Source of the DNA: an uncultured archaeon
GTDB taxonomy: Archaea; Asgardarchaeota; Lokiarchaeia; Sigyniarchaeales; SOKP01
Assembly: GCA_964388035.1 (NCBI GenBank)
Contig: CAYLZE010000034.1
Span: 1-45,740 of the forward strand
Direction: 5' to 3'
DNA length: 45,740 nucleotides
Shown here in pieces: positions 1,595-28,300 of this stretch (the first letter of the stretch is position 1; every line of letters begins with the position of its first letter). Both the position numbers and the translations under genes were made by a program. The notes under the pieces are model-generated. The model was given only the letters and a program-made list of their open reading frames with translations, had not been told where the DNA came from and did no database searches.

Positions 1595-1600
1595 TTATTA

Positions 1601-1649
1601 TAAAAAAATATATCAAGATAAAAAAATATATCAAGATAAAAAAATATAT
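1601..1649. repeat. 18-bp tandem repeat TAAAAAAATATATCAAGA x2.7
   Basis: Identical copies at 1601-1618 and 1619-1636, plus a 13-nt partial copy at 1637-1649. Confidence 0.85.
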
Positions 1650-1707
1650 AAAAATTGAAGAATTATATATTAATATAACTAACATTTTATTTCTAAACCG
1701 TGATATC

Positions 1708-2704: not shown

Positions 2705-3454
2705 TTAGTGAGGTAAAGAATCAAAAAACTTCAACATTTTCTTGCTTTCTGCATCGTATTTGGTGAGTTTTTCAATAGGAAAGAGGGAATGAAATAATAA
2801 ATAGGGTTTCTCAATAACATCCGACTCTTCATGATTTTTTTTGATTATTTCTCTGAGTTGTTCCTTGAATTGTTTAGTAATTTCCTCATATTCTTTGTAA
2901 GATTTTTCATCTAAAAAGCAAAGTTCATATTCAAATAAGTTATAAAAGAACAATTTCAGGTAATCATCAAATGACCCTTTTTCAATGGTAGAAGTTAGAG
3001 CATTAAAGTCTTGATAAAATTTACTTGCTCTTTCAAAAATTTGAGACATTGTTTTTAAGAACAAGGAATTTTTAACCATTAAATACTGGATTATTTGTTT
3101 TAAATCTTCTTCTTTAAGGTTTTTTAAGCGATTTGGATCTAACGCAGTATTCTGGAGAAAGTTTTTCTTTAAGCTAAAAATTTTTGAATCAATGGATCCT
3201 CTCGCATCTTTTTCCGTAACTTCAAGCAACTTATTCTTATCCAATTTTTTTAAATGATGAGTAATCGTAGACTTAACTTTTCCCACGAGTGAGCTCATCT
3301 TCGTAAGGCTTACTTCCGAAAAAATGAGAAGAAATAGTATGATACGGAGAGGGGTATCTCCGTTCATGAGTTCCAATATTTCTATATCCTCTTTTAATTG
3401 ATTGATGATTGCTTTTAATTCTTTATCATCCATCTCATCGTTTTTTTTCTGCAT
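2705..3454 (-). CDS. Winged-helix (ArsR/HTH_20-like) transcriptional regulator
   Basis: LRIILFLLIFSEVSLTKMSSLVGKVKSTITHHLKKLDKNKLLEV HTH plus wing, with a helical C-terminal domain. Confidence 0.75.
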   Translation of the reverse strand: MQKKNDEMDDKELKAIINQLKEDIEILELMNGDTPLRIILFLLIFSEVSLTKMSSLVGKVKSTITHHLKKLDKNKLLEVTEKDARGSIDSKIFSLKKNFLQNTALDPNRLKNLKEEDLKQIIQYLMVKNSLFLKTMSQIFERASKFYQDFNALTSTIEKGSFDDYLKLFFYNLFEYELCFLDEKSYKEYEEITKQFKEQLREIIKKNHEESDVIEKPYLLFHSLFPIEKLTKYDAESKKMLKFFDSLPH

Positions 3455-5340: not shown

Positions 5341-5364
5341 TTGAACATTCGAGATATATAAATA
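5341..5364 (+). promoter_or_regulatory. Operator palindrome TTGAA-CA-TTCGA plus TATA box (TATAAATA, 5357-5364) of the corrinoid operon
   Basis: Same motif and same 4-nt spacing to TATA as at 9331, 16606 and 19035. Confidence 0.75.
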
Positions 5365-5490
5365 CTATTGAAATGTTTAAATAAAATAATTTCTTCTTTG
5401 AATTTAAATATTGTTAATTAATGAAATTTTGATCTATAAAAATTTGACATTCTCGTCAAATAATTAATTATGAAAATAATGGATATATAA

Positions 5491-6135
5491 ATGAAGTCGA
5501 ATTTAAAAAATAATTTAATACAGCTCGAGCAAGATAAAGTATTGGACGAAATTGAAAGTCGTCTTGAGGAGGGAGAAGATCCCCTTAGATTAATTGAAGA
5601 ATGCAATCAAGCTATGACCGAAATCGGAGAGAAATACAAAGCTAAGGATTATTTTCTTGCGGAACTGATGGCCTCTGGAGAAATCTTTAAAGAAGCAATG
5701 AAAATCATTGACCCTTACTTGGGTGGGAAAATTATTGGAGGTAAAAGCAAGGGAAAAATAATTTTAGCAACCATTCAAGGAGACATCCATGATTTAGGCA
5801 AGAATATCCTTGCAACTCTCTTAAAATTAGAAAGTTTTGAAGTATTTGATTTAGGCGTGGATGTCGCTCCTGAAGTAATCATTAACAAGGTAAAAGAAAT
5901 TAAGCCAGATATTTTAGGATTTTCGGCATTGCTTACCGTCACTTTTGATCCGATGAAACAAGTAATTGATAAATTAAAGGAAGACGGTTTGCAAGATCAA
6001 TTAAAAATAATGGTCGGTGGAGGAATTACAACCACATTGGTAAAAGAGTACGTAGGTGCCGATTTTCAAGCCATCGATGCACTAGAAGGAGTAAAATACT
6101 GTTTAGAACTAATAAACTCGCGAGGCGGAAAGTAA
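5491..6135 (+). CDS. Corrinoid (B12-binding) methyl-carrier protein, MtaC/MttC family
   Basis: N-terminal cap (MTEIGEKY...YFLAELMASGE), DIHDLG (DxHxxG), SAL and MVGGG B12-binding motifs. Confidence 0.92.
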   Translation: MKSNLKNNLIQLEQDKVLDEIESRLEEGEDPLRLIEECNQAMTEIGEKYKAKDYFLAELMASGEIFKEAMKIIDPYLGGKIIGGKSKGKIILATIQGDIHDLGKNILATLLKLESFEVFDLGVDVAPEVIINKVKEIKPDILGFSALLTVTFDPMKQVIDKLKEDGLQDQLKIMVGGGITTTLVKEYVGADFQAIDALEGVKYCLELINSRGGK

Positions 6136-6138
6136 ACT

Positions 6139-7269
6139 ATGAAAGAAGAATACATGACTCCAGAAGAAAGGGTATATGCTGCCATTAATCTCGAACAACC
6201 TGACCGTGTTCCGATCGTTCCTCTTGCTGGCATGGACTTAGCAGCACATTATTTTGGAATGAACACCGTAGAAATGCACAAAGATCCAAAAAAAGGGCTC
6301 GATATCATGCTCAAATTTTTTGATGAATTTGGAGGTTGGGATGCATATACGACCATCCCCCTTACAAAGGGCTCTTATACTATTGCGGGATATAAAGTGA
6401 AGGCGCCAGGAATGGAATTACCGGATGATTATTTTTTACAATTTGATGAAGGAGAATGGTTAAAAATAGAGGATTATAAAACTATTGCTGATGTTGGATG
6501 GGCAAAGTTTAATGCAACAGATTTTGTGTATCGAATCTCTAATTGGACACCTGAAGATGCTGAAAATGCTCGAGTAACTCAGCGGAAATTGATGGGATAT
6601 GCAATGTATCAATGGTCGAAGCGAAACGTGGGAATGAAGGTAGGATCTTCTTTTAATCATCCTTTCTTTACTCTCTCTTTAAATCGCTCCATGATAAAAT
6701 TCACGCAAGATCTTTATCAGCGACCAGAATTGGTAGAAGCAGCTCTTGATACGATGACTGACGAACTTATAAGGAGAATAATTAAACAATGTCAACTTTC
6801 ACGCGGGAATGTGGTCTTTATCCCCGAAGAAAGAGCCGAGGACGCGATATATCCCTTGAAAATTTTCGAACGATTCTGGTGGCCGTTTACGAAAAGAATG
6901 GTAGAAAAACTGCACGATAAAGGCATCATACCCTGGTTTCATCTAGATCAATGTTGGGATTTAAATATTCCCTACTTTAAAGAATTACCTAGAGCATCGT
7001 GCTTTTTGGATTTTGATGGCTTGACCGACATCTTCAAAGCAAAAGAAATCTTACATGATCATCTTTGTATCATGAGCGATGTAAGCGCATCTTTATTTTC
7101 AATAGGAACACCAGATCAGGTCGAAGATTATTGTAAGAAGCTCATTGATAAACTAGGTGTTGATGGAGGTCACATCTTGGGCTCGGGTTGTGAAATCCCC
7201 CCTACTTGTAAGCCAGAAAATTTTAAAAGATTCCTCCATGTAGGAAAAACCTATCAATTATCTAAATAA
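6139..7269 (+). CDS. UroD/MtaA-CmuA superfamily corrinoid methyltransferase
   Basis: TPEERVYAAINLEQPDRVPIVP N-terminus, FERFWWP, WFHLD, GTPDQVEDYCKKLI and GSGCEIP. Starts 3 nt after the corrinoid gene. Confidence 0.82.
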   Translation: MKEEYMTPEERVYAAINLEQPDRVPIVPLAGMDLAAHYFGMNTVEMHKDPKKGLDIMLKFFDEFGGWDAYTTIPLTKGSYTIAGYKVKAPGMELPDDYFLQFDEGEWLKIEDYKTIADVGWAKFNATDFVYRISNWTPEDAENARVTQRKLMGYAMYQWSKRNVGMKVGSSFNHPFFTLSLNRSMIKFTQDLYQRPELVEAALDTMTDELIRRIIKQCQLSRGNVVFIPEERAEDAIYPLKIFERFWWPFTKRMVEKLHDKGIIPWFHLDQCWDLNIPYFKELPRASCFLDFDGLTDIFKAKEILHDHLCIMSDVSASLFSIGTPDQVEDYCKKLIDKLGVDGGHILGSGCEIPPTCKPENFKRFLHVGKTYQLSK

Positions 7270-7324
7270 TTTTCTATAAAATTTGTAAAATTAAAACGAA
7301 AAATAAAATATTGGAAAATATACC

Positions 7325-9151
7325 ATGAGAGATTCAAAGGTCAAAGATCCAGATCTAATCGATAAAAAAGAATACAGGAAAAGAAGAATGGAATTATTCA
7401 AGAAGTACGGTCCGCTAATTCAAGAAATTCTGGACATGCCTTCCGAGAATAAATTATCGTGGGGAATGCTCGTAGAAGATAATGCAAATAAATATCCCGA
7501 TAACCCTGCAATTAAATTTGAGGATATCACTCTAACTTACAAACAATTTAATGATTCGGTCAATCAATATGCTCATTACTTCATTTTTTTGGGTTTGAAA
7601 AAAGGGGACGTCGTAGAGATAATGATGACAAATCGGATAGAATTATTGGTCATTTTTACTGCGATTGCCAAGCTCGGGGCAATTAGCTCGTTGATTAATA
7701 TTGATATGCGGGGAAACGGTCTGATATATTGTCTAAATAAAACCCCCGGAAAATTTCTGATAATTGGCTCGGAATTAATTGATGAATTCGTGGATGTCAA
7801 GCCTAACCTTAATTTATCACCAGATCAGATCCTTTTCTTTTCCCCTGATCGCGATTCTAAAGGTGTTCCGGAAGGATTTATTGACATTAGTCAAGAGGTA
7901 AAAAATTACCCTTTAGATAATCCTCCCACTACTAACACTGTTAAAACCAAGGACCCAGTCGCGTATTTATTCACATCTGGTACCACTGGCCTTCCCAAGG
8001 CGGCTATAATTATCCACTATAGATTTGTTGGGAGCGCTTATTATTTTGGTCTTTTGATGGCAGAAATTACTCCCAATGATACCGTATATGTACCCCTTCC
8101 CTTTTTTCATGGAACACCTTTAGCGGTTGGTTGGTCCATTGCTTTTTCGAGAGGAGCTGCTTTAGCATTTTGCCGAAAATTCAGCATATCCAGCTTCTGG
8201 GAAGATATACGTAAATTTAATGCAACTGTTTTCATTTATATCGGAGAATTATTAAGATATTTATTGAATCAAACGCCTTCTTCCGATGACAAAAATCATT
8301 CCATAAGAGCAGTTCTCGGTCCAGGACTGCGGCCAGAAATCTGGATGGATTTTAAAGAGCGCTTTGGGATTGATTATGTTGGAGAATTTTACGGAGCTAG
8401 CGAATGTGCCGCTATTTTTGCTAATATTTTAAATTTTGATCGTACTATGGGCACCTGTTCTTCTAATTTTGCGATAGTTAAATATGATTTAGAAGAAGAA
8501 ATTCCGATTAGAAACGATAGTGGGTTCATGGAAAAGGTAGATGAAGGTGGGATAGGATTATTGCTCTTTGAGAGCAAGGGTACCACCTCTTTTAGAGGAT
8601 ATACCGATAAGGAAGCCACCCAAGCGAAGTTGATTAATAATGTTTTTACTGAAGGCGATATATGGTTTAATTCTGGTGATTTAGTAAAAGATCAAGGGTG
8701 CGCGCATGCTCAATTTGTCGATCGTCTTGGAGATACGTTCCGATGGAAAGGACACAATATCTCTACTACTGAAGTAGAACAAGTGCTCAATTTATTCGAT
8801 AAGGTCTTGTTTTCAACGGTGTATGGTGTAGAATTACCCCATATAGATGGAAGAGCAGGGATGGCAGCCATCGTAACAAGCACTCCTATCGAAGATTTTA
8901 ATTTAAAAGGTCTCACAGCTATATTTGACAGAAACCTCGCGCCGTATGCTAAACCAATTATTCTGAGATTCAAATCAAGTTTATCCATCACGCCAACTTT
9001 TAAATTTAAAAAAATTAAATTGAAAAAAGAAGGCTTTGATCGTGATAAGATTAAAGATCCCTTGTTTATCTTGTTGCCCGGCGAGAAAGAATACGTGCCG
9101 TTAACAAAAGAAATCCATGAAAAAGTACACCATGGCCAATATAAATTCTAA
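7325..9151 (+). CDS. Long/very-long-chain acyl-CoA synthetase, FATP/SLC27 (FadD6-like) subfamily
   Basis: AMP-binding motifs FTSGTTGLPKAA and EFYGASE, plus the FATP signature FVDRLGDTFRWKGHNISTTEVE. Confidence 0.9.
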   Translation: MRDSKVKDPDLIDKKEYRKRRMELFKKYGPLIQEILDMPSENKLSWGMLVEDNANKYPDNPAIKFEDITLTYKQFNDSVNQYAHYFIFLGLKKGDVVEIMMTNRIELLVIFTAIAKLGAISSLINIDMRGNGLIYCLNKTPGKFLIIGSELIDEFVDVKPNLNLSPDQILFFSPDRDSKGVPEGFIDISQEVKNYPLDNPPTTNTVKTKDPVAYLFTSGTTGLPKAAIIIHYRFVGSAYYFGLLMAEITPNDTVYVPLPFFHGTPLAVGWSIAFSRGAALAFCRKFSISSFWEDIRKFNATVFIYIGELLRYLLNQTPSSDDKNHSIRAVLGPGLRPEIWMDFKERFGIDYVGEFYGASECAAIFANILNFDRTMGTCSSNFAIVKYDLEEEIPIRNDSGFMEKVDEGGIGLLLFESKGTTSFRGYTDKEATQAKLINNVFTEGDIWFNSGDLVKDQGCAHAQFVDRLGDTFRWKGHNISTTEVEQVLNLFDKVLFSTVYGVELPHIDGRAGMAAIVTSTPIEDFNLKGLTAIFDRNLAPYAKPIILRFKSSLSITPTFKFKKIKLKKEGFDRDKIKDPLFILLPGEKEYVPLTKEIHEKVHHGQYKF

Positions 9152-9330
9152 AAATATAAATCAATTTTTTATTCTTAAATTTAGCGCTTATGCTGATACA
9201 TTTATCAACAGAGTAAAGTAAATAAATTGTTTTTAATATGCATCTTACCAGATTTGCAAAAATCCTAATAATTGGTAAAATTCATGTTTAATTGGAGAAA
9301 GATTTAGTAATTTATCAATAAATAAAATAT

Positions 9331-9354
9331 TTGAACATTCAATTAATATATATA
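9331..9354 (+). promoter_or_regulatory. Perfect operator palindrome TTGAA-CA-TTCAA plus TATA box (TATATATA, 9347-9354) of the acx operon
   Basis: Read directly. Part of a 72-nt block homologous to 5341-5412. Confidence 0.78.
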
Positions 9355-9464
9355 ACATTGAAATGTTTAAATAGTATTATGACTTCTTTGAATTTAAATA
9401 TTAATTTTTAACAATTTGACATTCAGTAAAGCGAATTGTAGCTATAAAAAAAAATGATATAAAT

Positions 9465-11621
9465 ATGATTTTAAAAAATAATAAAAAAGAAGACTTCATA
9501 TTAAAGGCAATTTCTCTGGACACGGGTGGAACGATGACTGACTCGTTTATTATTGATAGCGAAGGATCTTTTACCATAGGGAAGGCACAGACAACACCAT
9601 ATAATGAAATCGAAGGAATAATCAATTCAATAAACGATGCCTTAAGTCTGTATAAAACGACTTTGGATGAAGCAGGTAAATCCGTAGAAGCACTTGTCTA
9701 TTCTGGGACTGCAATGTTAAATAGACTTTTAGAAAGGGAAGGGAATAGCAATATTGGAATCATCGTGAATGCTGGTTTTGAAGATCTTCTGCGATTAGGA
9801 CGAGCGTTGCAATGCTGGATGTGGTTAGATTATGGGGGTCGCTTGCATGCCAGAGAACACGAACATCCTAAACCGCTTATCCCAAGAGAGCAAATTAAAG
9901 GTGTAAGAGGTAGAATCAATTTTTTACGGGAAGAAATTGTTCCTCTTTATAAAAAGGAAGCAGAACGTGCTGTAGAAGAATTGCTTGATATGGGGGTAGA
10001 TAGCATCTGTGTATGTCTATTATACGCTTATTTGAATCCTCGTCATGAGAAAATGGTAGAAAGAATTGCTAAAAAAATTATGAAGAAAAAAGGCGTGGAG
10101 ATTCCCATTATATTATCATGCGAACACAATCCTGTCCGCGGAGAGACACCGAGATTAAATTCTCTCGTTATCGAGCAATATGCCGTAGAACCTTCGAGAA
10201 AACAATTAATAAATATCGCAAATGCGATTAAAGAAAAGGGAATACCTACACCTTTACGAGTTCTTACATCGTATGGTTCCACCATAAGCCCATTTCATAA
10301 AAGTCTCATTCCTACCATGGTATCTGGCCCTATTGGGGGATTAATCGGATGCAAATTTCTCGCAGAAAAGTTAGGAATAAAAAATCTCGTATCTTCGGAT
10401 GTGGGAGGTACGAGCTTCGATGTGGGTCTTTTAATGGAAAAATATGTGCCAACAAAATGGGAAAGTTCAATGGGACAATTTATTTTGAACGTTCCGATGA
10501 TTAGCCTAAATGCTATTGGAGCCGGAACCGGCATGTTTTTAAAATATAATGAGGTATCGGGACGACTGGAATTTGGACCCGAGAGTGCTGGTTACCGAAT
10601 AGGCGTGAGTAACGAAAAGTCAGGTGTAGAAAGGGTTACCATCACAGATTGCAGTTTGATCTTAGGTTATCTAAATCCCGATAATTTTCTTGGGGGTAGG
10701 ATTCCATTAAATAAATCGCGTGCGTTGAAATATATTGAAAAGCAAATTGCGAATCCCTTCAATGTTGATCCATTTGATGCTGCCAGAGGTGCGATTGACC
10801 TCGTAGAAATTAGCATGAGAAACCACTTGAATAGCATGATTCAAGGGTTAGGATTTAGGCCCGAAAATTATACATTAATTTCATTTGGAGGAGGAGGACC
10901 CTTACATGTTGCAGGATATAGCAGGGATATGAATTTTGAAAATGTGCTCATCCCCGAATGGGCGGCTGCGTTTTCAGCTTTCGGATGTAATTGCGCGGAT
11001 CATGGATATCGATACGAAAAGTCGGTAGACTTAGTAATAGCTCCTGATGGAAGTCTTAATAAGAGTGTTATAATGATGCTAAATGCAACTTGGTCCGATC
11101 TGAAAAAAGACATCATTAAGGAGTTTGAAAGGGAAGACCGGGACTCAGGAGATATAGAATTTAAACTTTCATTAAGAATTCAATATCTAGGAATGCTTGA
11201 CGATTTGGAAGTTGATTCGCCTTCCTCCAACATCAATGAGGATGATCTAAAGATGATAACAAAAAATTATAATGAGTTTTTTGAAAGGATCTTCCATAAA
11301 GGGACTTCAAGTCCAGAATTAGGATATCATATACCTAAGGCAATAGCTACCGGAATTGTTCCTCTACCTAAACCAAAATTGCCAGAATATAGTATTGGAA
11401 GCGACACACCGGATGAGAATGCTTTGAAAGAGCATAGGGAAATATATTGGGATAATTCTTGGCATGATGCCCGAATTTGGGAAATGGAATTATTAAAATC
11501 AGGGAATAAGATCAATGGTCCTGGGGTGATAGAAGCTCCTGCTACTACCTTGTTGGTACCACCTGGTTTTACTGTAGATTTGGATAAACATAGAATATTT
11601 CAAATGAAGCACGTGAGGTGA
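9465..11621 (+). CDS. acxA: Acetone carboxylase-like beta subunit (hydantoinase/oxoprolinase A family, ATP-binding)
   Basis: ASKHA motifs LDTGGTMTD and SDVGGTSFD, plus YSGTAMLNRL, SGPIGG, GPESAG and GGGGPLH. First gene of a beta-alpha-gamma cluster. Confidence 0.88.
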   Translation: MILKNNKKEDFILKAISLDTGGTMTDSFIIDSEGSFTIGKAQTTPYNEIEGIINSINDALSLYKTTLDEAGKSVEALVYSGTAMLNRLLEREGNSNIGIIVNAGFEDLLRLGRALQCWMWLDYGGRLHAREHEHPKPLIPREQIKGVRGRINFLREEIVPLYKKEAERAVEELLDMGVDSICVCLLYAYLNPRHEKMVERIAKKIMKKKGVEIPIILSCEHNPVRGETPRLNSLVIEQYAVEPSRKQLINIANAIKEKGIPTPLRVLTSYGSTISPFHKSLIPTMVSGPIGGLIGCKFLAEKLGIKNLVSSDVGGTSFDVGLLMEKYVPTKWESSMGQFILNVPMISLNAIGAGTGMFLKYNEVSGRLEFGPESAGYRIGVSNEKSGVERVTITDCSLILGYLNPDNFLGGRIPLNKSRALKYIEKQIANPFNVDPFDAARGAIDLVEISMRNHLNSMIQGLGFRPENYTLISFGGGGPLHVAGYSRDMNFENVLIPEWAAAFSAFGCNCADHGYRYEKSVDLVIAPDGSLNKSVIMMLNATWSDLKKDIIKEFEREDRDSGDIEFKLSLRIQYLGMLDDLEVDSPSSNINEDDLKMITKNYNEFFERIFHKGTSSPELGYHIPKAIATGIVPLPKPKLPEYSIGSDTPDENALKEHREIYWDNSWHDARIWEMELLKSGNKINGPGVIEAPATTLLVPPGFTVDLDKHRIFQMKHVR

Positions 11622-11627
11622 AAAAAG

Positions 11628-13841
11628 TTGAATAAAAATATTGGATGGAATAATAAAACCTTAAAGCAAATGTTAGAAGTGAGCGAAAACTTATTAGAAG
11701 AAACTAATACCTATTATGGGTTAAAAACTCTCGAATTAAAAAATAAAAATCCGTTTCGGTATGAACGTGCTTTTGCAAATCTAAGAGGTGGTTTAGTATC
11801 TGCCCGGGAAACTGCTCTACATGTTTCAGCATCCCCGATTGTGAGAGAAATCGGAGAATTGTGTTTCGGTCTATATACTCCAGAAGGAGATGCTATAGCC
11901 GTGTCTACCGGTATCATGATCCACGTACATACTATGAGCGAAGCTATTAAGTTTATGATAAGGAATAATTATGAAATGGATCCGGGCATTCAACTGGGCG
12001 ATATTTTTCTCAACAACGATCCTGATTGTGGTAATGTTCATACTACTGATGTTCAGACGCTAATTCCTATCTTCTGGGAAGACGAGCTAATTGGATGGGC
12101 GGGTGGTGTGACGCACGAATTAGACATTGGTGGCATTACTCCCGGTCATACGCTTGTTGCTGCCGTTCAAAGATTTGATGATGGCATTTATTATACTTGC
12201 AGAAAAATAGGGTCAAATGATAAAATCTGGAATGACCACCTCATAAATGCGATGAGAGGCACGAGAATGCCCTTATATTGGGAATTGGATGAAAAATGTA
12301 GATTAGCAGGAGATATGATGATAAGAGATGCCGTATTGGAATTTATAAAAAAAGAGGGAATTGATTACTACAAAGGATTCATTCGGGAAACCATAGAAGA
12401 AGGGAGGAATATATTTAAAAAGCGGGTGAAAGAACGGCTTATCCCGGGCAGATATAGAGCCGCTTCATTTATCGATGCTCCCATTAAAAAAGAAGCGTGG
12501 AGACCCATGGCTAAAATCGATAAAGTCGCAAATCAACCCATCGAAATCATTGTAAAAGATGATGGTACATTGCGGTTATCTTTTGATGGAGCGAATAAAG
12601 CAGACAATTCGCCATTTAATTGCGGGATAGGAGCGATGTCTGGCGGTCAATGGGTGTTACTCACTCAAGTGCTAATTTATAGAGATAAAGTCAATGATGG
12701 CGCTTATTATGCGATTGAAAAGGATTATCCTAAAGGTACGTGGGCGAATCCCGGAAATCCCTTGCTCTCTTATCAAAATCCTTGGGGGACTTTAATTCCA
12801 GCTTATACGGGGATGATGAAATGTCTCTCTTATGGATTTTTTTCCCGGGGATTTAGAGAAGAAGTAGTTCCAGGGTATGGAATGACAGGCGATAGTATTC
12901 AAGGCGGAGGTATGTTTTCTAAAGGTCTGGCAAAAGGAACCAGATGGTCATTATCCACCTTTGAAATCAGCGGACAGGGACTTGGTGCGAGTGCTGTCAA
13001 GGATGGCCTTGATTGGGGATATGCAATGTGGAATCCGGAAGCAGATCTTGGGGATGTTGAAACCTGGGAATTATTACAAGGGGGAATTCCTTATCTCGCA
13101 CGGCGAGTTAAACCTAATACTGCTGGTTATGGCAAGTATAGAGGTGGTGCGAATTATGAAGGAATTGCTTTTATTTATAATTCAGAAGATGTGGAATTTT
13201 TTGGTGCCCGAGAAGGCCTCTGCTTTCATGGCTGTGGAGGAATGCATGGCGGATATCCTCAATCCACCGGATACCGACTCTATGCTAAAAATACCAACTT
13301 AGAAGAAATATTCAAAAATCAGCAAGAATACCCTCTCGGAGACTCGAATCCAGAAGATGGAGAATTTGAAAAAATGATAAAGGGGGAAATCATAAGAAAG
13401 CCGTATTGTCTTCTTTATCCCATAAGCTTGGAAAACTATGACTTGATTCACTTTTCAATGAGTGGAGGACCAGGATATGGGGATCCTCTGGAAAGAAAAG
13501 AAGAAGCCCTTAAGGTGGACTTGAAGGAGGGCATATATACGGAGAAAATCGTCAATAATGTTTTTGGCATTGTTGCTGAATTTAATGAGGATAAAAAGGA
13601 ATGGATGATAAACGAGGAAGCAACTATGAAAAGACGAGAAGAACTTAGAATGGAGAGACAAGAACAATCCGTGTCTTTTGAAGAATATTGGAAAGAAGAG
13701 CGAGAACGAATCCTCAATGGAAGTTATCATGAAGCGGTTACACTCATGTATCATGAAAGCTTTGACTTATCGCAAAAGTTTGCTAAAGAATTTAGGAAAT
13801 TTTGGAATCTACCCGAAAATTTTAATTTTGAGGTGAAATAA
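11628..13841 (+). CDS. acxB: Acetone carboxylase-like alpha subunit (hydantoinase B family, metal-binding)
   Basis: SASPIVREIGELCFGLY, STGIMIHVHTM, GNVHTTD and GVTHELD metal-ligand motifs, WNPEADLGDVETWE, GYGKYRGG and GGPGYGDPLER. TTG start after a GAGGTGA Shine-Dalgarno. Confidence 0.9.
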   Translation: MNKNIGWNNKTLKQMLEVSENLLEETNTYYGLKTLELKNKNPFRYERAFANLRGGLVSARETALHVSASPIVREIGELCFGLYTPEGDAIAVSTGIMIHVHTMSEAIKFMIRNNYEMDPGIQLGDIFLNNDPDCGNVHTTDVQTLIPIFWEDELIGWAGGVTHELDIGGITPGHTLVAAVQRFDDGIYYTCRKIGSNDKIWNDHLINAMRGTRMPLYWELDEKCRLAGDMMIRDAVLEFIKKEGIDYYKGFIRETIEEGRNIFKKRVKERLIPGRYRAASFIDAPIKKEAWRPMAKIDKVANQPIEIIVKDDGTLRLSFDGANKADNSPFNCGIGAMSGGQWVLLTQVLIYRDKVNDGAYYAIEKDYPKGTWANPGNPLLSYQNPWGTLIPAYTGMMKCLSYGFFSRGFREEVVPGYGMTGDSIQGGGMFSKGLAKGTRWSLSTFEISGQGLGASAVKDGLDWGYAMWNPEADLGDVETWELLQGGIPYLARRVKPNTAGYGKYRGGANYEGIAFIYNSEDVEFFGAREGLCFHGCGGMHGGYPQSTGYRLYAKNTNLEEIFKNQQEYPLGDSNPEDGEFEKMIKGEIIRKPYCLLYPISLENYDLIHFSMSGGPGYGDPLERKEEALKVDLKEGIYTEKIVNNVFGIVAEFNEDKKEWMINEEATMKRREELRMERQEQSVSFEEYWKEERERILNGSYHEAVTLMYHESFDLSQKFAKEFRKFWNLPENFNFEVK

Positions 13842-14333
13842 ATGAGCAACCAAGATGAAACATTACTAGAAAAAATGTTGGATGGAGACTTATCTTGGAA
13901 TGAATTACTCCCTATCATTCAAGATGATAAAGATCCCCATCGTTTTGAAAAAATCCTTAAAATCTTACAAAATCGTGTCCCTTGGAAAGAAAAAATTCTT
14001 TTACCACTCCATGAGCATTTATACGTGGTAGAGAAAAACGGAGAGAGAATTGTCAAATGCGATTGCGGTCAGGAATTTGGGGATTATAGAAATAATTGGA
14101 AATTAAAATGCAAGGTTCGAATCAGAAACACCATCGAAGCAATCAATGAATTATATCCTAAATACATGGGTTCTGATCCCGAGTGGGAGATCTTGAGAGA
14201 ATATTTCTGCCCTCAATGTTTTACGCTACTTGATACGGAAGCGGTACCTCCGGGATATCCCCCGATTTTTAATTTCTTACCGGATATCGATGCATTTTAT
14301 GAGAAATGGATGAAAAATCCAGATAAAAAATGA
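13842..14333 (+). CDS. acxC: Acetone carboxylase-like gamma subunit (Zn-binding)
   Basis: KCDCGQEFGDYRNNWKL and REYFCPQC (CxC...CxxC), plus EAVPPGYP and FLPDIDAFY. Directly abuts the acxB stop. Confidence 0.9.
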   Translation: MSNQDETLLEKMLDGDLSWNELLPIIQDDKDPHRFEKILKILQNRVPWKEKILLPLHEHLYVVEKNGERIVKCDCGQEFGDYRNNWKLKCKVRIRNTIEAINELYPKYMGSDPEWEILREYFCPQCFTLLDTEAVPPGYPPIFNFLPDIDAFYEKWMKNPDKK

Positions 14334-14336
14334 AAC

Positions 14337-14345
14337 TTTTTTTTT
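14337..14345 (+). terminator. Oligo-T tract after acxC (possible archaeal terminator or attenuation point before the SDR)
   Basis: T9 run 3 nt after the stop codon. Confidence 0.4.
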
Positions 14346-14411
14346 AATATTATTATGTGTTTTGAATCAATAAATTATTAAATATGAGGATAACAAATAA
14401 ATTGATGCAAA

Positions 14412-15290
14412 ATGAACGATTTTAAAGATAAAATTGCGGTAATCACGGGTGGTGCAAGCGGAATCGGGAAAGGATTAGCAGAAAAATGTCTTAGTAAGGG
14501 AATGAAAGTCGTACTAGCAGATATTCAAAAAGGAGCTTTAAACACTGCAACCGAAGAATTACAATCCAAAGGAGGCACTGTCATAAGCGTTTTAACTGAT
14601 GTTTCTAACCCGGATCACGTGAAAAATTTAGCTCAAAAAACTTATAATGAATTTGGAAGGATTCATTTATTATTTAATAATGCAGGTGTTTATTTAACTA
14701 AACCCTTGTGGGATCTAAGTATTGCCGATTGGAAGTGGGTATTGGGAGTGAATTTGTGGAGCGTGATAAATAGTACTAATATATTCGTTCCATTGATGCT
14801 TAACCAAGAGGAAAACTCCCATATTATTAACACGGCTTCCTTAGCAGGAATGTTACCCGGAGGAGGTATATATGGAATGACTAAACACGCGATCATCTCC
14901 CTTACGGAATCATTATATTTTGAATTAGAACAAATTAAGGCGAAAATTAAAGTATCGGTTGTCTGTCCGTGGTATGTAAATACCTCCATTTCAAAAAGTG
15001 AGAATTATAGACCATCAGAGTTGAAGAATAATTTGTCCGTGGATGCGTCTACTACACCTCAGTCAGATAAGAAAGAAAAAGAACATTCAAGAATCATGAA
15101 GCGTTTTGAACGAAGTATCGCAAATGGAATATCGTGTGAGGAATTAGCGAATGCTATATTCGATGGAATTATCAAGGAATCCTTCTTTATAATACCTCAG
15201 CAGAGAACGTGGTGGCAAGATATCCTGAAGTCTGAATTGGATTGTATATTAGAAGGAAAAAATCCCGAACTAAGACCCACTGCTTTATGA
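14412..15290 (+). CDS. Classical short-chain dehydrogenase/reductase
   Basis: TGGASGIG, NNAG, catalytic Ser (TASLAG) and YGMTK (YxxxK). Confidence 0.92.
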   Translation: MNDFKDKIAVITGGASGIGKGLAEKCLSKGMKVVLADIQKGALNTATEELQSKGGTVISVLTDVSNPDHVKNLAQKTYNEFGRIHLLFNNAGVYLTKPLWDLSIADWKWVLGVNLWSVINSTNIFVPLMLNQEENSHIINTASLAGMLPGGGIYGMTKHAIISLTESLYFELEQIKAKIKVSVVCPWYVNTSISKSENYRPSELKNNLSVDASTTPQSDKKEKEHSRIMKRFERSIANGISCEELANAIFDGIIKESFFIIPQQRTWWQDILKSELDCILEGKNPELRPTAL

Positions 15291-15643
15291 AGATATTCAA
15301 ATTAAAGAAGTAAACACCTGATGAATCTATTTGATATCATCTATGAAAAAGCATTTAGTACCAAATGATCCATTCCATCTTAATTTTTTTTTATATCAAA
15401 TGTTTAGAGCAAAATAGGTATACATTTTTATTTTTCAGAAGTTATGTATGCAAATAATAGTATAAATTTAACGAGATTAATTGTAATGAGAAATTTAATA
15501 ACATACAATTATAATTCGTTTTTTATTAATCATGCTTAAGCTATTAAGATTGTGCAAATGATATAAAAAAATATTTAAATATGATAAATAAGAATTAATC
15601 ATTATAATTAGATTAAAAATTATTTTTAGGAGATTAGTAAATC

Positions 15644-16381
15644 ATGGCAATCAATCAAGTTGAGATGATACAATTCATCATTCTCTTAATAAATTCCCTT
15701 TTAAATATCCTATTATCAATTAGAATAATAATAAGATATTTCTCTACTAAAGTTAAAGAATTAATTTACGTGGGAGTAGCTTTTTTCTTATCTGGGATAT
15801 TATATGATGCTGCTCTTATTAATTTCTTCAAGGTTCTCTTAGTAGGAAGCCCAATCGATACTACATATATCATTGTCTGTTTAGTCTTATTTCCGTTTTT
15901 TCTATTCAGTTGGATCCTGGCTTTTACTGAATTAGTGTATAAGGGGAAGAAAATAGTAATATTGGCAACATTAATCTTCATAATAGTTTTTGAGATAATA
16001 GTAGCTGTAATATTATTAAACCCTGCTCAATCTTTAATACATTTGGATAATGATTTATTTTTCATTTGGACTCCCTTGGTCACCATATATATAACTGCTT
16101 TCTTCGTTGTGTTTGTCATTACGGCCATAATATTCAGTTTAAAAGCACGGCAGAGTGATAAGAAGCATATCAGATTAAAAGGGACCTTCATCCTTCTGGC
16201 GATTATTACTTCTATTTTCGGTTTTATAATTGAGACCGTTTTAATAGCTCTCGAGTTTTATATTATAGCAAGAGTCTTACACATTACCGCCATTTTCTTA
16301 TATTATTTTGGGTTCTTAATGCCAAAATGGGTTAGGAAGCTTTTTCACGTTGAAGCAGTAGAAGAAGTAGCTTCCACTTGA
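15644..16381 (+). CDS. Seven-transmembrane protein of unknown function
   Basis: Seven hydrophobic segments, C-terminal YYFGFLMPKW, AGGAG Shine-Dalgarno. Paralogous to the pseudogene at 27569-28300. Confidence 0.75.
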   Translation: MAINQVEMIQFIILLINSLLNILLSIRIIIRYFSTKVKELIYVGVAFFLSGILYDAALINFFKVLLVGSPIDTTYIIVCLVLFPFFLFSWILAFTELVYKGKKIVILATLIFIIVFEIIVAVILLNPAQSLIHLDNDLFFIWTPLVTIYITAFFVVFVITAIIFSLKARQSDKKHIRLKGTFILLAIITSIFGFIIETVLIALEFYIIARVLHITAIFLYYFGFLMPKWVRKLFHVEAVEEVAST

Positions 16382-16605
16382 AATTAAATTCTTTTTATTA
16401 TTATTTAATATTAAATTTTTAATTGTCTCTCCTCCATTCTTAGATGTAATTAGAATTCTTTTTTGTTAAATAAATAATTACTATCAATTTGACCTTATTT
16501 TAATAGATTAAACTCCAAAATATCTCTATGAATTCCTAAGGATTCTGAAAAAAAGAGTGCAATCAATTAAATATCTTTTAAACACTCAATTTGATTATAA
16601 TAACT

Positions 16606-16629
16606 TTGGACATCCAACCTATTTATAAA
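16606..16629 (+). promoter_or_regulatory. Perfect operator palindrome TTGGA-CA-TCCAA plus TATA box (TTTATAAA, 16622-16629)
   Basis: Read directly, with the same 4-nt spacing as the other three sites. Confidence 0.75.
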
Positions 16630-16751
16630 TATGTAAAACATTTTTAAACTGTTGGTGATATATATTAATTAGAACTTAATAGTTATCAAAAATAAAACGC
16701 AAGATTGTGCACTTTAATATAAATAAAATAAAAAAAATAATAGGAATTTTA

Positions 16752-18986
16752 ATGGCAACAAACCAAATTATGAATATAAGTAAAGATGGGGCTAAACTCA
16801 TCAAGCTTGTTATTGAACCTAATGGATGGCAAGGCTACGGAATATACGAACCCATTTTTTTCACAGTAGTACCCGTTTGGAATGATGGAATTTCTGACTT
16901 AGATTGTAGAAGAGCGGGAGATCTTCCTGAATGGACGGTAAGTGATTATGGTTATATTGAGGGAATTAGGATGGATGGTGCTATTGATTCCAACCTTGTA
17001 TCCTGTGGACCAAGAGATAAAAAAATCCAAGGAAGAGCAGAATCGAAAGAGGATAAAGGAAAAATCATACGCTATGGTAGTGTTTTAATAAAATTAGAAG
17101 AAACACGGGGGAGAACGATTTTATATCGTTCTGGTCATGGCGGAGGGATTGGCAAAGTAACCGTATCATATGGAGGACTTTCCACTTCTGTTGTAGTGAA
17201 GGGTTCGGAGGAAGTAGGTTCTACTCTACCTCAAGATTATCTTTATCTTGTTGATTTAGAAAAAGTATCCACTCATGAACAGAGCGATGAACAAGAAGTG
17301 GTTATAGATCTGAAGGAAGTAAATAATCAAGCAAAAAAATTCACGAATAACTTAAAGCACGAGAAAATCAGAAGAGAAGCGCATGCACTTTCAGAAAAGT
17401 TAGAAAAATATATTCGGGATTGGATGGATGGAAAAGTACCTGCCAGACTTCCTCGTGGTTTATTACCAGCGGGGATAGATAATTATAAATCAAAAGATTG
17501 GACTTTATGCAATATAGAGGAAATTACTCCCGAAGAACAATGGGGTATTAGACCCGCCCATAGTGTTGAAACGGATTATTCAAAGCTTTATTTTTTCTCT
17601 CCTGAACCAAATTGTACTTATTCTCTAATCATTTTCACGGCTCCTTTCGGTTCTAAGCTTGTTTTTGAGGGAGAATTTCCTCACTGTCGCTTTATGAGCA
17701 TTCAAGTTTCTCCTCCTTTCGATTCAAAATATCCTCTTACGGGAGGTATTGGGGCTGCCGAAGTTCCCATAGTGGATGTAGACATTGAGCCTTTACCGGG
17801 TAATGTTAACCCTTTTCGCCTAAATGCTGATAGGAAAGCAACAAAACGAAGTTATCAAGTAGAATTCGAGATGGGAGAGGGAAATGCAGTTGAACTCAAT
17901 CCAACTCTTATGGTCCCTCCCAATTATCGGGCGCCATCCAGCACGAGGCGGATAGCTGGCCCTTTTAACTTTTCAGGATTTATTGGGGATGGAAAATTTC
18001 TTCCTGCCATAGTATGGATGAGATATTATGCCCCAGATAATGGTTTTGGTCCTTTAGGGGGTGTTCGCTTACCTAAAGCTCATTTTGAGCTTTCTACCGG
18101 CGAAAAGTTTTGGCTTAAATGCGATTCTTCTCTTGGTTTTTTAAGAGCCAATACCGTTGTTCCTGGCTTTAGAACAGCTCCTTTAGAACCACCAAAAGCG
18201 TGGGGTCCTTCCTTAGGATGGTTGAAAATGTATGGGCTTCATCTTATTTATGTAGAAGGAATGGCTATCCAAGCGATTCCTGAAGATTCTTCCTCCTTGG
18301 TGCAGTCCGTTGCACGTAAACGCGTACGGAATTATGATAAATACATGTGGAATAGAGGTCCAGTGGCTCCTCCTCCGGGAAATTTTGAAAGTTCCTGCAC
18401 GTGTTGTCCATATATTAGTTATCTTACTAGGAGAGCCATGCTGGGACATGGAAAAGTATATGTCATGACGGGCAAACTTCCAAAAACACCTAAAACCCTT
18501 AATGGAAATCCAGTATTTACGGGCGGGGAAGCTCGGTACTGGTCCATATCTCGTTGTCACGAGTCACCTGATTATATCTTCCCTGCAATTAATTATGGGA
18601 CGTTAAACGATGAAGAGTTAATTTTAGACTCTGAAAATCACTATATAATTTGTTACTCAAGAAAAGAAGATCGTCCGAAGAATGCCAATGCAGAAAACGG
18701 GATAACATGGCAAGCATGGGGACCAGATGCCACAAACTATTTAACAATTCGATGGATGAGCGTCTCCCCAGATCATATTTTGCCCGAACATGTTCCAAAT
18801 GAGATTAACGTACCTTGGAAAGTGGGTGCTTGGTCTCAAAAAGAATTTGATAAGACAATTCTTAGTCAAAATCAGCCCGGATTACTAGGACCCTATCATC
18901 CCATACTACATTACATGATAAAGGAGGAATTTGAAGCACTTGGAAATGAAATAACCCCTAAAAAGTTCCCAAAATGGACAGTGTAA
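16752..18986 (+). CDS. Large hypothetical protein; possible N-terminal Ig-like domain and DUF1254/DUF1214-like core
   Basis: Long ORF (the track starts at GTG 16707; ATG 16752 is more likely). Motifs PEPNCTY, GEFPHCRFMSIQ and EARYWSI; N-terminal FTVVPVWNDG...WTVSD...VTVSYGGLSTSVVV is Big_2-like. The family call is tentative. Confidence 0.6.
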   Translation: MATNQIMNISKDGAKLIKLVIEPNGWQGYGIYEPIFFTVVPVWNDGISDLDCRRAGDLPEWTVSDYGYIEGIRMDGAIDSNLVSCGPRDKKIQGRAESKEDKGKIIRYGSVLIKLEETRGRTILYRSGHGGGIGKVTVSYGGLSTSVVVKGSEEVGSTLPQDYLYLVDLEKVSTHEQSDEQEVVIDLKEVNNQAKKFTNNLKHEKIRREAHALSEKLEKYIRDWMDGKVPARLPRGLLPAGIDNYKSKDWTLCNIEEITPEEQWGIRPAHSVETDYSKLYFFSPEPNCTYSLIIFTAPFGSKLVFEGEFPHCRFMSIQVSPPFDSKYPLTGGIGAAEVPIVDVDIEPLPGNVNPFRLNADRKATKRSYQVEFEMGEGNAVELNPTLMVPPNYRAPSSTRRIAGPFNFSGFIGDGKFLPAIVWMRYYAPDNGFGPLGGVRLPKAHFELSTGEKFWLKCDSSLGFLRANTVVPGFRTAPLEPPKAWGPSLGWLKMYGLHLIYVEGMAIQAIPEDSSSLVQSVARKRVRNYDKYMWNRGPVAPPPGNFESSCTCCPYISYLTRRAMLGHGKVYVMTGKLPKTPKTLNGNPVFTGGEARYWSISRCHESPDYIFPAINYGTLNDEELILDSENHYIICYSRKEDRPKNANAENGITWQAWGPDATNYLTIRWMSVSPDHILPEHVPNEINVPWKVGAWSQKEFDKTILSQNQPGLLGPYHPILHYMIKEEFEALGNEITPKKFPKWTV

Positions 18987-19034
18987 TAAATAAATTAATT
19001 TTTTTTATTTTCATTTTAATGATATAAATAATTA

Positions 19035-19058
19035 TTGGACTTCCAAAATATTTATATA
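19035..19058 (+). promoter_or_regulatory. Perfect operator palindrome TTGGA-CT-TCCAA plus TATA box (TTTATATA, 19051-19058)
   Basis: Read directly, with the same 4-nt spacing as the other three sites. Confidence 0.75.
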
Positions 19059-19137
19059 GGATTGAATCGTTAAATATACCAATAATAATCGTTTTTAGAG
19101 ATTCTTAAAAATTAAAAAATCAAAGGTTTAATTAAAA

Positions 19138-27568: not shown

Positions 27569-28300
27569 TTACTCTGTAATTAATCTATTGGCTATTTGTT
27601 TGGGAAGGAAAAACCCGAAATAATAAAAAATTGAACTCAAAATCAATAAGGATCGTATTATTGAGATAATTAGTAGTTCTTCCCAGCTAAACGAATCTAA
27701 AGCGGCTGCAATTGTAAAAAATAAAAACGCTATTAGTAAAAATCGCCCCTTCCATCTAACATTAACATCTTTTGAATTCATGCTTACTTTTGCAAAAATG
27801 ACCCCCGTAGAAAATGCCACAATAATCGCAAATAGAGCAAAAATTAACGTCAATGAACTCCTTTGTCCAATATCTGGATTTACTTCTACGCCAATTAGAT
27901 CCGGATTAACAAATAGAAAGGCAATCAAAAGGATTTCATATGGTTCGCAAATTATTAAAAAAGTGGTCATTAGCCTGACTTTCCATTAGGGGTAAACCAA
28001 GCTAGTAAAAGAATAAATCCCGCAAACGATTGCTAAGGGAACAAATATGTTCGCAAAAATCAAAAACAAGAACGTGCTCAATCCTTGATTAAAAAGCATT
28101 TTAGAAAGAAAATTATATGCAGACCAGAACAAAGACATGCTTAGAAAAAGCCAACTCAATCCCACAGTTAGGAATTCTTTTTGGCGATTAGAGAAGTAAT
28201 TTAATAAAATTCTTATTCCAATTATTCAGGAAATTACAATGAAAATTAAACTAAACAAACCGCGAATGAATTCCACTTGGGATGCTATTTGGAAAATCAT
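27569..28300 (-). pseudogene. 7TM membrane protein pseudogene (two in-frame stops)
   Basis: Manual translation from ATG 28300 stays in frame for 244 codons: MIFQIASQVEFIRGLFSLIFIVIS*IIGIRILLNYFSNRQKEFLTVG...SFTSLVYP*WKVRLMTTF...YYFGFFLPK. TGA at 28226-28228 and TAA at 27986-27988. Collinear with 15644-16381. Confidence 0.85.

What the first reader, a model, noticed from the sequence alone, without database searches (positions are those of the whole stretch)
5341..19058. Candidate new operator TTGRA-CW-TYCAA at a fixed 4 nt upstream of the TATA box in four promoters
Seen: TTGAACATTCGA-gata-TATAAATA (5341), TTGAACATTCAA-ttaa-TATATATA (9331), TTGGACATCCAA-ccta-TTTATAAA (16606) and TTGGACTTCCAA-aata-TTTATATA (19035). 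Three of the four are perfect 5-2-5 palindromes, and the A/G change in one arm is matched by T/C in the other. Known: the archaeal BRE lies just upstream of TATA, so a dimer bound here would block or recruit TFB. Inference: one regulon covers the corrinoid/ligase, acx/SDR, unknown-protein and transporter units. It thereby ties two otherwise unassigned transcription units to the pathway.
Basis: partly seen in the sequence, partly recalled or inferred. Interest (0 to 1): 0.82.

Follow-up and report, generated by a model that had tools for sequence, protein, structure and literature searches.

The report
Shared palindromic operator in four Lokiarchaeal promoters
Four neighbouring gene units in an uncultured Lokiarchaeon each carry the same 12-base palindrome four bases before their TATA box, far beyond chance, so they are probably switched together by one DNA-binding protein, though no experiment has tested this.

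Summary
TTGAACATTCGA (5341), TTGAACATTCAA (9331), TTGGACATCCAA (16606) and TTGGACTTCCAA (19035) each lie 4 nt upstream of a TATA-like octamer, on the coding strand, before four co-directional units.

It is not chance. The window has 4 matches against 0.02 expected. In the 5.47-Mb genome only these sites combine an exact motif with N4+TATA. None of 134 related genomes has an exact hit.

A relative (G015) has TCTAACATTAGA-N4-TTTATATA before the ortholog of the 759-aa gene, and TCTAA recurs just after that TATA. The layout is the same but the half-site differs.

The best candidate regulator is a PH1932/Phr-like ArsR-type winged-helix protein (2705-3454, minus strand) or a paralog. Homologs elsewhere carry related palindromes in their own promoters.

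Caveats:
- Sites 1 and 2 belong to one duplicated promoter/leader module.
- acx promoters in relatives lack the motif.
- There are no transcription-start or binding data.
- The two half-site variants could mean two regulators.

The closest analogue is Pyrococcus TFB-RF1. I class this as a new member of a known kind, of moderate interest.

The parts
5341..5352 (+). O1 site 1, TTGAACATTCGA (one mismatch to the palindrome), before the corrinoid / URO-D methyltransferase / acyl-CoA ligase unit
   Evidence: gene families
5357..5364 (+). TATA-like box of site 1 (TATAAATA), 134 nt before ATG 5491
   Evidence: conserved against site 2, whereas TATA-like boxes nearer the ATG are not
5367..5383 (+). O2 of site 1, ATTGAAATGTTTAAATA, 2 nt after the TATA box
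5393..5412 (+). Leader block CTTCTTTGAATTTAAATATT, identical in sites 1 and 2 (predicted early transcribed region)
5441..5452 (+). Leader block AATTTGACATTC shared with site 2 (9413-9424); resembles O1 with one A deleted
9331..9342 (+). O1 site 2, TTGAACATTCAA (perfect palindrome), before the acetone/acetophenone-carboxylase-like genes plus SDR
   Evidence: gene families
9347..9354 (+). TATA-like box of site 2 (TATATATA), 118 nt before ATG 9465
9357..9373 (+). O2 of site 2, ATTGAAATGTTTAAATA
16606..16617 (+). O1 site 3, TTGGACATCCAA (perfect palindrome), before the 759-aa (747 aa from ATG 16743) unknown protein; a weaker TTAAACACTCAA lies at 16578
16622..16629 (+). TATA-like box of site 3 (TTTATAAA); no clear O2 follows
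19035..19046 (+). O1 site 4, TTGGACTTCCAA (perfect palindrome), before the MFS_2/GPH-family transporter; preceded by a T-run after the stop of the 759-aa gene
19051..19058 (+). TATA-like box of site 4 (TTTATATA), 87 nt before ATG 19138
19061..19077 (+). O2 of site 4, ATTGAATCGTTAAATAT
2705..3454 (-). Candidate regulator: 249-aa ArsR-type winged-helix protein with a long helical C-terminal domain (PH1932/Phr-like)
   Evidence: ortholog in the G015 cluster

Best explanation
O1 (TTGRA-CW-TYCAA) is the operator of a dimeric transcription factor that co-regulates four adjacent transcription units: corrinoid protein/methyltransferase/acyl-CoA ligase; acetone-carboxylase-like genes plus SDR; a 759-aa unknown protein; and a GPH-type transporter. 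A DUF2961 gene on another contig may also belong.

The palindrome ends 4 bp before the TATA box, so its right half abuts or overlaps the BRE position. In three promoters a second element (O2) begins with the same TTGAA half-site. O2 sits 2 bp after the TATA box, between TATA and the expected start site.

My preferred mechanism is inferred, not shown. In the absence of substrate the factor occupies O1 and O2 and brackets the TATA box, which excludes TFB/TBP or RNA polymerase. A pathway substrate releases it.

The most likely factor is the PH1932/Phr-like ArsR-type winged-helix protein encoded at the edge of the island (2705-3454, minus strand) or its paralog on contig C5.

Shown: the motif, its register, its uniqueness in the genome, and the parallel layout in a relative. 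Inferred: protein binding, the identity of the factor, and the sign of regulation.
For: Statistics: (see observation check).

The sites share elements in a mosaic, not as whole copies. Site 4 has the O1 variant of site 3 but the O2 of sites 1 and 2. Sites 1 and 2 align as perfectly conserved blocks (O1, TATA, O2 and two leader blocks) separated by diverged spacers.

No RNA explanation fits. There is no Rfam hit, and the leaders fold no better than shuffles.

Relative G015. The ortholog of the 759-aa gene (51% identity) is preceded by TCTAACATTAGA-AGCA-TTTATATA-TA-ATTCTAA. That is the same 5-CA-5 + N4 + TATA layout with a different half-site, and that half-site recurs after the TATA box. This is the only exact copy of that palindrome in G015 that has a TATA box at N4. 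TCTAA and TCGAA are enriched 2-3 fold in that cluster's intergenic DNA.

Regulator. A profile of its family matches PDB 1ULY (PH1932) at E 1.6e-15 over nearly the full length, and Phr (2P4W). The AF2 model has pLDDT 91 and shows a winged helix followed by long helices. Three clusters (this window, G000:C51 and G015:C375) share this regulator family together with an MFS_2 transporter, a URO-D methyltransferase and a 245-aa membrane protein family.

Link between regulator family and motif. TTGGA-N(1-3)-TCCAA occurs only 4 times in 1.02 Mb of intergenic DNA: sites 3 and 4, C39:1064 (not followed up), and TTGGAcTCCAA 14 nt before the start codon of the C5 paralog. Homologs in G272 and G221 carry ATGAACATTCGA-AAAT-TATAATTA plus two further ATGTTCGA copies in their own promoter region.

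Fifth site. TTGAACATTCAT-TACG-AAATATATA lies before a DUF2961 gene. That family neighbours the 743-aa ortholog in G015 and a corrinoid gene on G000:C2.

Positional rule for archaeal regulators: PMC5937170, PMC4706686.
Against: There are no transcription-start, expression or binding data.

Sites 1 and 2 are copies of one module, so similarity by descent explains part of the signal.

Orthologous acx promoters in G001, G003 and G022, and the ligase promoter in G001, lack the motif.

Other corrinoid, URO-D and DUF2961 clusters in the same genome lack it.

The regulator's own promoter has no O1 site.

Other loci holding homologs of the regulator show no repeated palindrome in this register.

TATA-to-ATG distances of 85-134 nt lie at the long end of this genome's broad distribution.

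No BRE consensus could be derived for this genome, so BRE strength cannot be judged.

The C7 site sits so close to a Shine-Dalgarno-like GAGGA and the ATG that its TATA may not be the real promoter.
Confidence: 0.62

Rival explanations
1. O1 is an activator site of the TFB-RF1 type. A dimer bound immediately upstream of the BRE recruits TFB (or TBP) to promoters that are otherwise weak, and the substrate turns the units on through the activator.
For: O1 lies wholly upstream of the TATA box and at most 2 bp into the BRE position. That is the place where archaeal activators bind (PMC5937170; PMC4706686). TFB-RF1 uses a palindrome, TCTGAANTTCAGA, with a similar inner core at a conserved distance upstream of a weak BRE/TATA. 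Site 3 has a pyrimidine-rich spacer (CCTA) and no O2.
Against: The TATA boxes are near-consensus. Three of the four promoters, and the G015 promoter, carry a copy of the half-site between TATA and the expected start, which is a position associated with repression. BRE strength could not be assessed.
Confidence: 0.25
2. There are two related regulons rather than one. TTGAA-CA-TTCAA (sites 1 and 2, perhaps C7) and TTGGA-CW-TCCAA (sites 3 and 4) are read by two paralogous factors. The 'compensatory change' then marks two specificities.
For: The variants sort cleanly into pairs. The C5 paralog of the regulator has TTGGAcTCCAA in its own promoter, and that half-site is otherwise almost absent from intergenic DNA. 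G272/G221 homologs carry the GAACATTCGA type. The genome encodes at least six members of the family.
Against: Site 4 (TTGGA class) shares O2 with sites 1 and 2 (TTGAA class). A single R/Y-tolerant position is common in operators. The C5 palindrome has a 1-nt rather than a 2-nt spacer.
Confidence: 0.2
3. The promoters are copies by descent with no dedicated factor. The island was assembled by re-using one promoter cassette, and the palindrome is a passenger.
For: Sites 1 and 2 align over about 150 nt (a 46-nt stretch at 89% identity, E 2e-7, unique in the genome). The island is not syntenic in relatives, so it was assembled recently.
Against: Sites 3 and 4 share only O1 and the TATA box with each other and with sites 1 and 2. 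The GC-rich palindrome is the best-conserved part of otherwise 80% A+T DNA, and dyad symmetry is kept through a two-sided change. An unrelated half-site occupies the same register in G015.
Confidence: 0.1
4. O1 is an extended core-promoter element read by an alternative TFB/TBP paralog rather than by a classical regulator.
For: It has a fixed register next to the BRE/TATA.
Against: The site has dyad symmetry, whereas TFB reads the BRE asymmetrically. The half-site recurs downstream of TATA. The element is confined to one locus. I did not test this directly.
Confidence: 0.03

Closest known systems
TFB-RF1 (PF1088) and its binding motif TRBM in Pyrococcus/Thermococcus (PMC5937170)
   Same: Both are short palindromes with an inner TGAA..TTCA core (TCTGAANTTCAGA against TTGAACATTCAA). 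Both sit at a conserved distance just upstream of the BRE/TATA in a handful of promoters that form a small, local regulon including a transporter.
   Different: The TRBM has a 1-nt centre and 6-nt arms, whereas here the centre is 2 nt and the arms 5 nt. TFB-RF1 is a protein of about 100 aa (gene span), unlike the 249-aa PH1932-like candidate. TFB-RF1 promoters have no reported second site after TATA. Activation is demonstrated there; nothing is demonstrated here.
Phr (PF1790) and PH1932: ArsR-type winged-helix proteins with a C-terminal helical dimerisation domain
   Same: The candidate regulator's family profile matches PH1932 (1ULY, E 1.6e-15, nearly full length) and Phr (2P4W). Both are also the top Foldseek rows. 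Phr is a repressor whose site lies between TATA and the start site, like O2 here.
   Different: Phr's 29-bp site (TTTA, TGGTAA, AAAA) is unrelated in sequence and has no partner site upstream of the BRE. Foldseek TM-scores are low (0.26-0.35) because the long helices pack differently. Binding of the Lokiarchaeal protein to O1/O2 is untested.
TrmB/TrmBL1 and the TGM motif in Thermococcales (PMC4706686)
   Same: A palindromic site whose position relative to the BRE/TATA decides activation or repression, controlling sugar uptake and catabolic operons.
   Different: It is a different protein family and motif, and a global rather than a one-locus regulon.

Membership tests
Archaeal regulator operator adjoining a BRE/TATA core promoter | Dyad-symmetric site in fixed register with a TATA box, upstream of a gene on the same strand | tested here: met
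   Four sites at N4 from TATA-like octamers, all on the + strand and all intergenic, 85-134 nt before start codons.
Archaeal regulator operator adjoining a BRE/TATA core promoter | Occurrence beyond chance and not genome-wide | tested here: met
   Window: 4 observed against 0.02 expected. Genome: only this locus. No exact hit in 134 relatives.
Archaeal regulator operator adjoining a BRE/TATA core promoter | The TATA box is the functional promoter (start site about 25 nt downstream) | not testable with these tools
   No transcript data. Indirect support only: this TATA is conserved between sites 1 and 2, while TATA-like boxes nearer the ATG are not.
Archaeal regulator operator adjoining a BRE/TATA core promoter | Sequence-specific binding by a protein | not testable with these tools
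   Needs EMSA, DAP-seq or footprinting.
TFB-RF1 / TRBM system | 13-nt palindrome TCTGAANTTCAGA | tested here: not met
   O1 is 12 nt with a 2-nt centre. Only the inner TGAA/TTCA is shared.
TFB-RF1 / TRBM system | Regulator homologous to PF1088 (about 100 aa) encoded in the regulon | not tested
   No PF1088 sequence was available by reference. The local candidate is a 249-aa PH1932-like protein. PF1088 spans 303 bp.
TFB-RF1 / TRBM system | Weak BRE that makes the promoter activator-dependent | tested here: inconclusive
   No BRE signal could be extracted from 499 putative promoters of this genome.
PH1932/Phr-like ArsR-type regulators (for the protein at 2705-3454) | N-terminal ArsR-type winged helix | tested here: met
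   HTH_5 hits in 44 of 50 family members. The window protein itself scores only weakly (NCBIfam ArsR E 3e-4), but the family profile matches many ArsR/SmtB chains.
PH1932/Phr-like ArsR-type regulators (for the protein at 2705-3454) | C-terminal helical extension homologous to PH1932 over the full length | tested here: met
   Profile against 1ULY: E 1.6e-15, query 15-194 aligned to chain 4-186. The AF2 model has long helices at 115-148 and 183-210.
Methanosarcina Msr / MsvR regulators | Family-level match (DUF1724/FilR1 domain or the MsvR equivalog) | tested here: not met
   No such Pfam family appears among the 50 members. The NCBIfam MsvR score is 27.6 bits against a cut-off of 220.

The most novel reading that the evidence does not exclude
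Lokiarchaeia hold a diversifying family of PH1932/Phr-like winged-helix regulators. Each would be paired with its own 5-2-5 palindrome of the form xxxAA-CA-TTxxx. The palindrome sits in a fixed frame around the TATA box: a full site ending 4 bp upstream, and a half-site starting 2-4 bp downstream. Half-sites would change together with the regulator (TTGRA in this genome, TCTAA/TCGAA in G015, GAACATTCGA in G272/G221). That would be a first readable cis-regulatory code for substrate-specific catabolic islands, including corrinoid methyltransferase clusters, in Asgard archaea.
Probability: 0.3. Interest if true: 0.62.

Novelty: new member of a known kind. Interest (0 to 1): 0.45.

Why it matters
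Almost nothing is known about gene-specific transcription control in Asgard archaea, and most of them cannot be cultured. If this element is real, it gives three things.

First, it is a concrete, testable operator-regulator pair that can be studied with recombinant proteins alone.

Second, it is guilt-by-association evidence that a 759-aa protein of unknown function (DUF1254/DUF1214-like fold), a GPH-type transporter and perhaps a DUF2961 (a Pfam domain of unknown function) protein work with a corrinoid methyltransferase and an acetone-carboxylase-like enzyme.

Third, it is an example of an operator half-site changing while the promoter layout is kept between two genera.

It does not change what is known about how archaeal regulators work.

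Tried and rejected
RNA-level explanation: no Rfam hit at E up to 1 over 1-26000, and the four leaders fold no better than shuffles.

Extended dyad symmetry that would include TATA-like boxes on both sides of O1: flank pairing is 8-12 of 20, as expected for AT-rich DNA.

A repeated or mobile promoter cassette: the site 1/site 2 similarity is unique in the genome.

A conserved regulon across relatives: near-matches in 134 family genomes are mostly inside ORFs or before unrelated genes. acx and ligase orthologs lack the motif.

A general tendency for palindromes at N4 from TATA boxes in this genome: none.

Motif copies at other corrinoid, URO-D, DUF2961 or MFS_2 clusters of this genome: none within 2 mismatches in a sensible register.

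Repeated palindromes near 20 regulator homologs in relatives: no general pattern apart from G272/G221 and the G015 cluster.

BRE consensus for this genome: no signal.

Autoregulation of the window's regulator through O1: no site.

Tools that gave nothing:
- The word-indexed homolog search found only the query for the regulator.
- The protein atlas gave no usable lead for the 759-aa protein.
Full report
**Setting**

The window is contig C34 of a 5.47-Mb, 33% G+C assembly in 211 contigs. Its relatives include a MAG labelled Candidatus Lokiarchaeota (P0002), and it carries an archaeal Clp1-type kinase.

Between 3984 and 21127 the genes are as follows:
- 3984-5192 (minus strand): a metallo-beta-lactamase/alkyl-sulfatase-like gene.
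- 5491 onward: corrinoid protein, then a URO-D-type methyltransferase (6139) and an acyl-CoA ligase (7325).
- 9465-14333: hydantoinase A, hydantoinase B and acetone-carboxylase gamma, followed by an SDR (14412).
- 15644: a 245-aa membrane protein.
- 16707/16743-18986: a 759-aa protein with no Pfam family.
- 19138: an MFS_2/GPH transporter.
- 20633: a 164-aa unknown protein.

T-runs follow the stops of the ligase, SDR, membrane-protein and 759-aa genes. This fits separate transcription units.

**The observation**

Three are perfect 5-2-5 palindromes, and the position-4 A/G change is mirrored by T/C at position 9.

Chance is excluded on several counts:
- The window has 4 matches against 0.02 expected.
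- Genome-wide, the degenerate 12-mer occurs 20 times, about what composition predicts. Only the three copies in this locus have a TATA box at N4. With one mismatch allowed there are nine hits, four of them here.
- About 2000 intergenic TATA-like boxes were examined. Perfect 5-2-5 palindromes at any given offset from them number 1-5 in the whole genome. At offset 4, three of the five are these sites.
- Among 134 genomes of the same family, none has an exact match. One-mismatch hits (about 0.65 per genome) barely exceed the reversed-pattern control and mostly fall inside ORFs.

Intergenic DNA here is about 80% A+T. The G+C-containing palindromes therefore stand out.

First, sites 1 and 2 are not independent. 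They align over about 150 nt as blocks of identity separated by diverged spacers and an 18-nt indel. The blocks are O1, the TATA box, ATTGAAATGTTTAAATA, CTTCTTTGAATTTAAATA, AATTTGACATTC and the start region. This module occurs nowhere else in the genome.

Second, a further element, O2 (ATTGAAnnGTT(T)AAATA), starts 2 nt after the TATA box in sites 1, 2 and 4. It begins with the O1 half-site TTGAA and lies between the TATA box and the expected start site. Site 4 thus combines the O1 variant of site 3 with the O2 of sites 1 and 2. Simple duplication does not predict that mosaic; selection on separate elements does.

The leaders give no Rfam hit and no unusual folding. The signal is therefore at the DNA level.

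**Comparative evidence**

The island as a whole is not conserved. acx orthologs (68-70% nucleotide identity) in G001, G003 and G022, and the ligase ortholog in G001, have unrelated upstream regions. The 759-aa protein was found in only one other of 400 genomes of the phylum, G015.

That one case is informative. In G015 the 743-aa ortholog sits in a cluster with two URO-D methyltransferases, an MFS_2 transporter, two copies of the 245-aa membrane protein family, DUF2961, and an ArsR-type protein 33% identical to the window's 2705-3454 product.

Its promoter reads TCTAACATTAGA-AGCA-TTTATATA-TA-ATTCTAA. This is a perfect 5-CA-5 palindrome at N4 from a TATA box, and its half-site is repeated just after the TATA box. 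The layout is that of O1/O2, but the half-site differs. From the background rate, a perfect palindrome at that one offset has a chance of about 0.0015 before requiring the CA centre.

The other three exact copies of that 12-mer in G015 have no TATA box at N4. TCTAA and TCGAA are 2-3 fold enriched in that cluster's intergenic DNA compared with other G015 loci. That count was made post hoc.

**The candidate factor**

The 249-aa protein at the island's edge has only weak direct hits. A profile search found 230 representatives at E below 1e-10. HTH_5 (ArsR) is found in 44 of 50 members. The family profile matches PH1932 (1ULY) at E 1.6e-15 over nearly its whole length, and Phr (2P4W). The AF2 model (pLDDT 91) shows a winged helix followed by long helices, and Foldseek ranks the same two entries near the top. 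Proteins of this kind are dimers that read dyad sites.

Three observations tie the family to the motif:
- The window, G000:C51 and G015:C375 all combine the regulator with MFS_2, URO-D and the membrane-protein family.
- In all 1.02 Mb of intergenic DNA of this genome, TTGGA-N(1-3)-TCCAA occurs four times: sites 3 and 4, C39:1064 (not followed up), and TTGGAcTCCAA 14 nt before the start codon of the C5 paralog.
- Homologs in G272 and G221, divergent from a glycyl-radical enzyme gene, carry ATGAACATTCGA-AAAT-TATAATTA plus two more ATGTTCGA copies in one 228-nt intergenic region. The two regions are about 90% identical, so they count as one case.

The C51 paralog's own TATA box is flanked by AATGGTAC repeats, again a site-TATA-site layout.

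None of this shows which paralog binds O1. The window's regulator has no O1 in its own promoter.

**Extent of the regulon**

The only other intergenic, correctly oriented hit with up to 1 mismatch and a good core is on contig C7: TTGAACATTCAT-TACG-AAATATATA before a DUF2961 gene. That family is a neighbour of the 743-aa ortholog in G015 and of a corrinoid gene on G000:C2. The hit is functionally coherent but weak, because there are six DUF2961 paralogs and its TATA box is oddly close to the ATG.

Other corrinoid, URO-D and DUF2961 clusters lack the motif. The membrane-protein gene at 15644 has no site.

**Mechanism**

Archaeal regulators bound within or downstream of the BRE/TATA repress. Those bound upstream of the BRE usually activate by recruiting TBP or TFB (PMC5937170; PMC4706686).

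O1 ends 4 bp before the TATA box. It therefore abuts the BRE, much as the TFB-RF1 motif does. A half-site also sits after the TATA box in three of the four promoters and in G015, and the TATA boxes are near-consensus. For these reasons I favour repression by bracketing the TATA box, relieved by a substrate. An activator of the TFB-RF1 kind remains a serious rival.

The clean split between the TTGAA class (sites 1 and 2) and the TTGGA class (sites 3 and 4), together with the C5 observation, leaves open two paralogous factors rather than one.

**Comparison and verdict**

The closest described system is TFB-RF1 with its palindrome TCTGAANTTCAGA at a conserved distance upstream of a weak BRE/TATA. 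That is a resemblance in working. It is not membership, because the motif geometry differs and TFB-RF1 is a protein of about 100 aa. The candidate protein belongs with PH1932/Phr.

This is a well-supported computational prediction of an ordinary kind of element in an organism group where none has been described. It is a new member of a known kind, of moderate interest.

Noticed in passing
window 15644-16381 and 27599-28282 (minus strand); about 35 further loci in G000: The 245-aa multi-pass membrane protein with no Pfam family belongs to a family with about 37 tblastn hits in this genome. Several sit next to corrinoid or URO-D genes (C51, C63, C22, C1). G015 has two copies in the orthologous cluster.
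   Followed up: partly
G000:C5:77570-77580: TTGGAcTCCAA is a perfect 5-1-5 palindrome with the site 3/4 half-sites. It lies 14 nt before the start codon of a paralog of the candidate regulator. About 90 nt upstream lies TATATATTTA-TTGGATCATTCG...TCGTTAAAT, which shares TCGTTAAAT with the O2 of site 4.
   Followed up: partly
L080 7758-7985 (G272:C122) and L079 (G221:C4): A regulator homolog is divergent from a glycyl-radical enzyme (PFL-like plus Gly_radical) gene. The shared intergenic region holds three copies of ATGTTCGA/ACATTCGA. One of them is ATGAACATTCGA at N4 from TATAATTA.
   Followed up: partly
L060 6926-6990 (G000:C51): The promoter of another regulator paralog has AATGGTAC(C/T) on both sides of its TATA-like box, about 25 nt before the ATG. 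The cluster also holds an M28 peptidase, MFS_2, URO-D, a HAD hydrolase and a copy of the membrane-protein family.
   Followed up: partly
window 16743-18986: The 759-aa protein has about 180 homologs in bacteria and archaea, some fused to F5/8-type-C or secretion-sorting domains. The AF2 model (pLDDT 87) best matches uncharacterised structures 6ANS, 3U07 and 2P3Y/3VB9; that these are DUF1254/DUF1214-like is my recollection, not a tool result.
   Followed up: partly
G000 contigs C7, C60, C2 (two copies), C8, C68: There are six DUF2961 paralogs. The one at C2:138016 lies 0.6 kb before a corrinoid protein gene. A fragment similar to the regulator's C-terminal domain lies beside the one at C2:117864-118928.
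   Followed up: no
window 1600-1655: Tandem copies of AAAAAAATATATCAAGAT lie just upstream of the 323-aa SpoVT/AbrB-domain protein gene at 1708.
   Followed up: no
window 21247-25071 (minus strand): A 1274-aa histidine kinase has an N-terminal NMT1_2 periplasmic-binding-like domain, PAS and GAF domains. No response regulator was seen next to it.
   Followed up: no
L065 7888 (G280:C36) and L081 11905 (G015:C68): The palindrome AATCTTTAGATT recurs next to TATA-like boxes in two loci that hold regulator homologs. In G280 it lies about 110 nt before the regulator gene, and a similar ATCTTTTAGAT is present in G003:C41.
   Followed up: no
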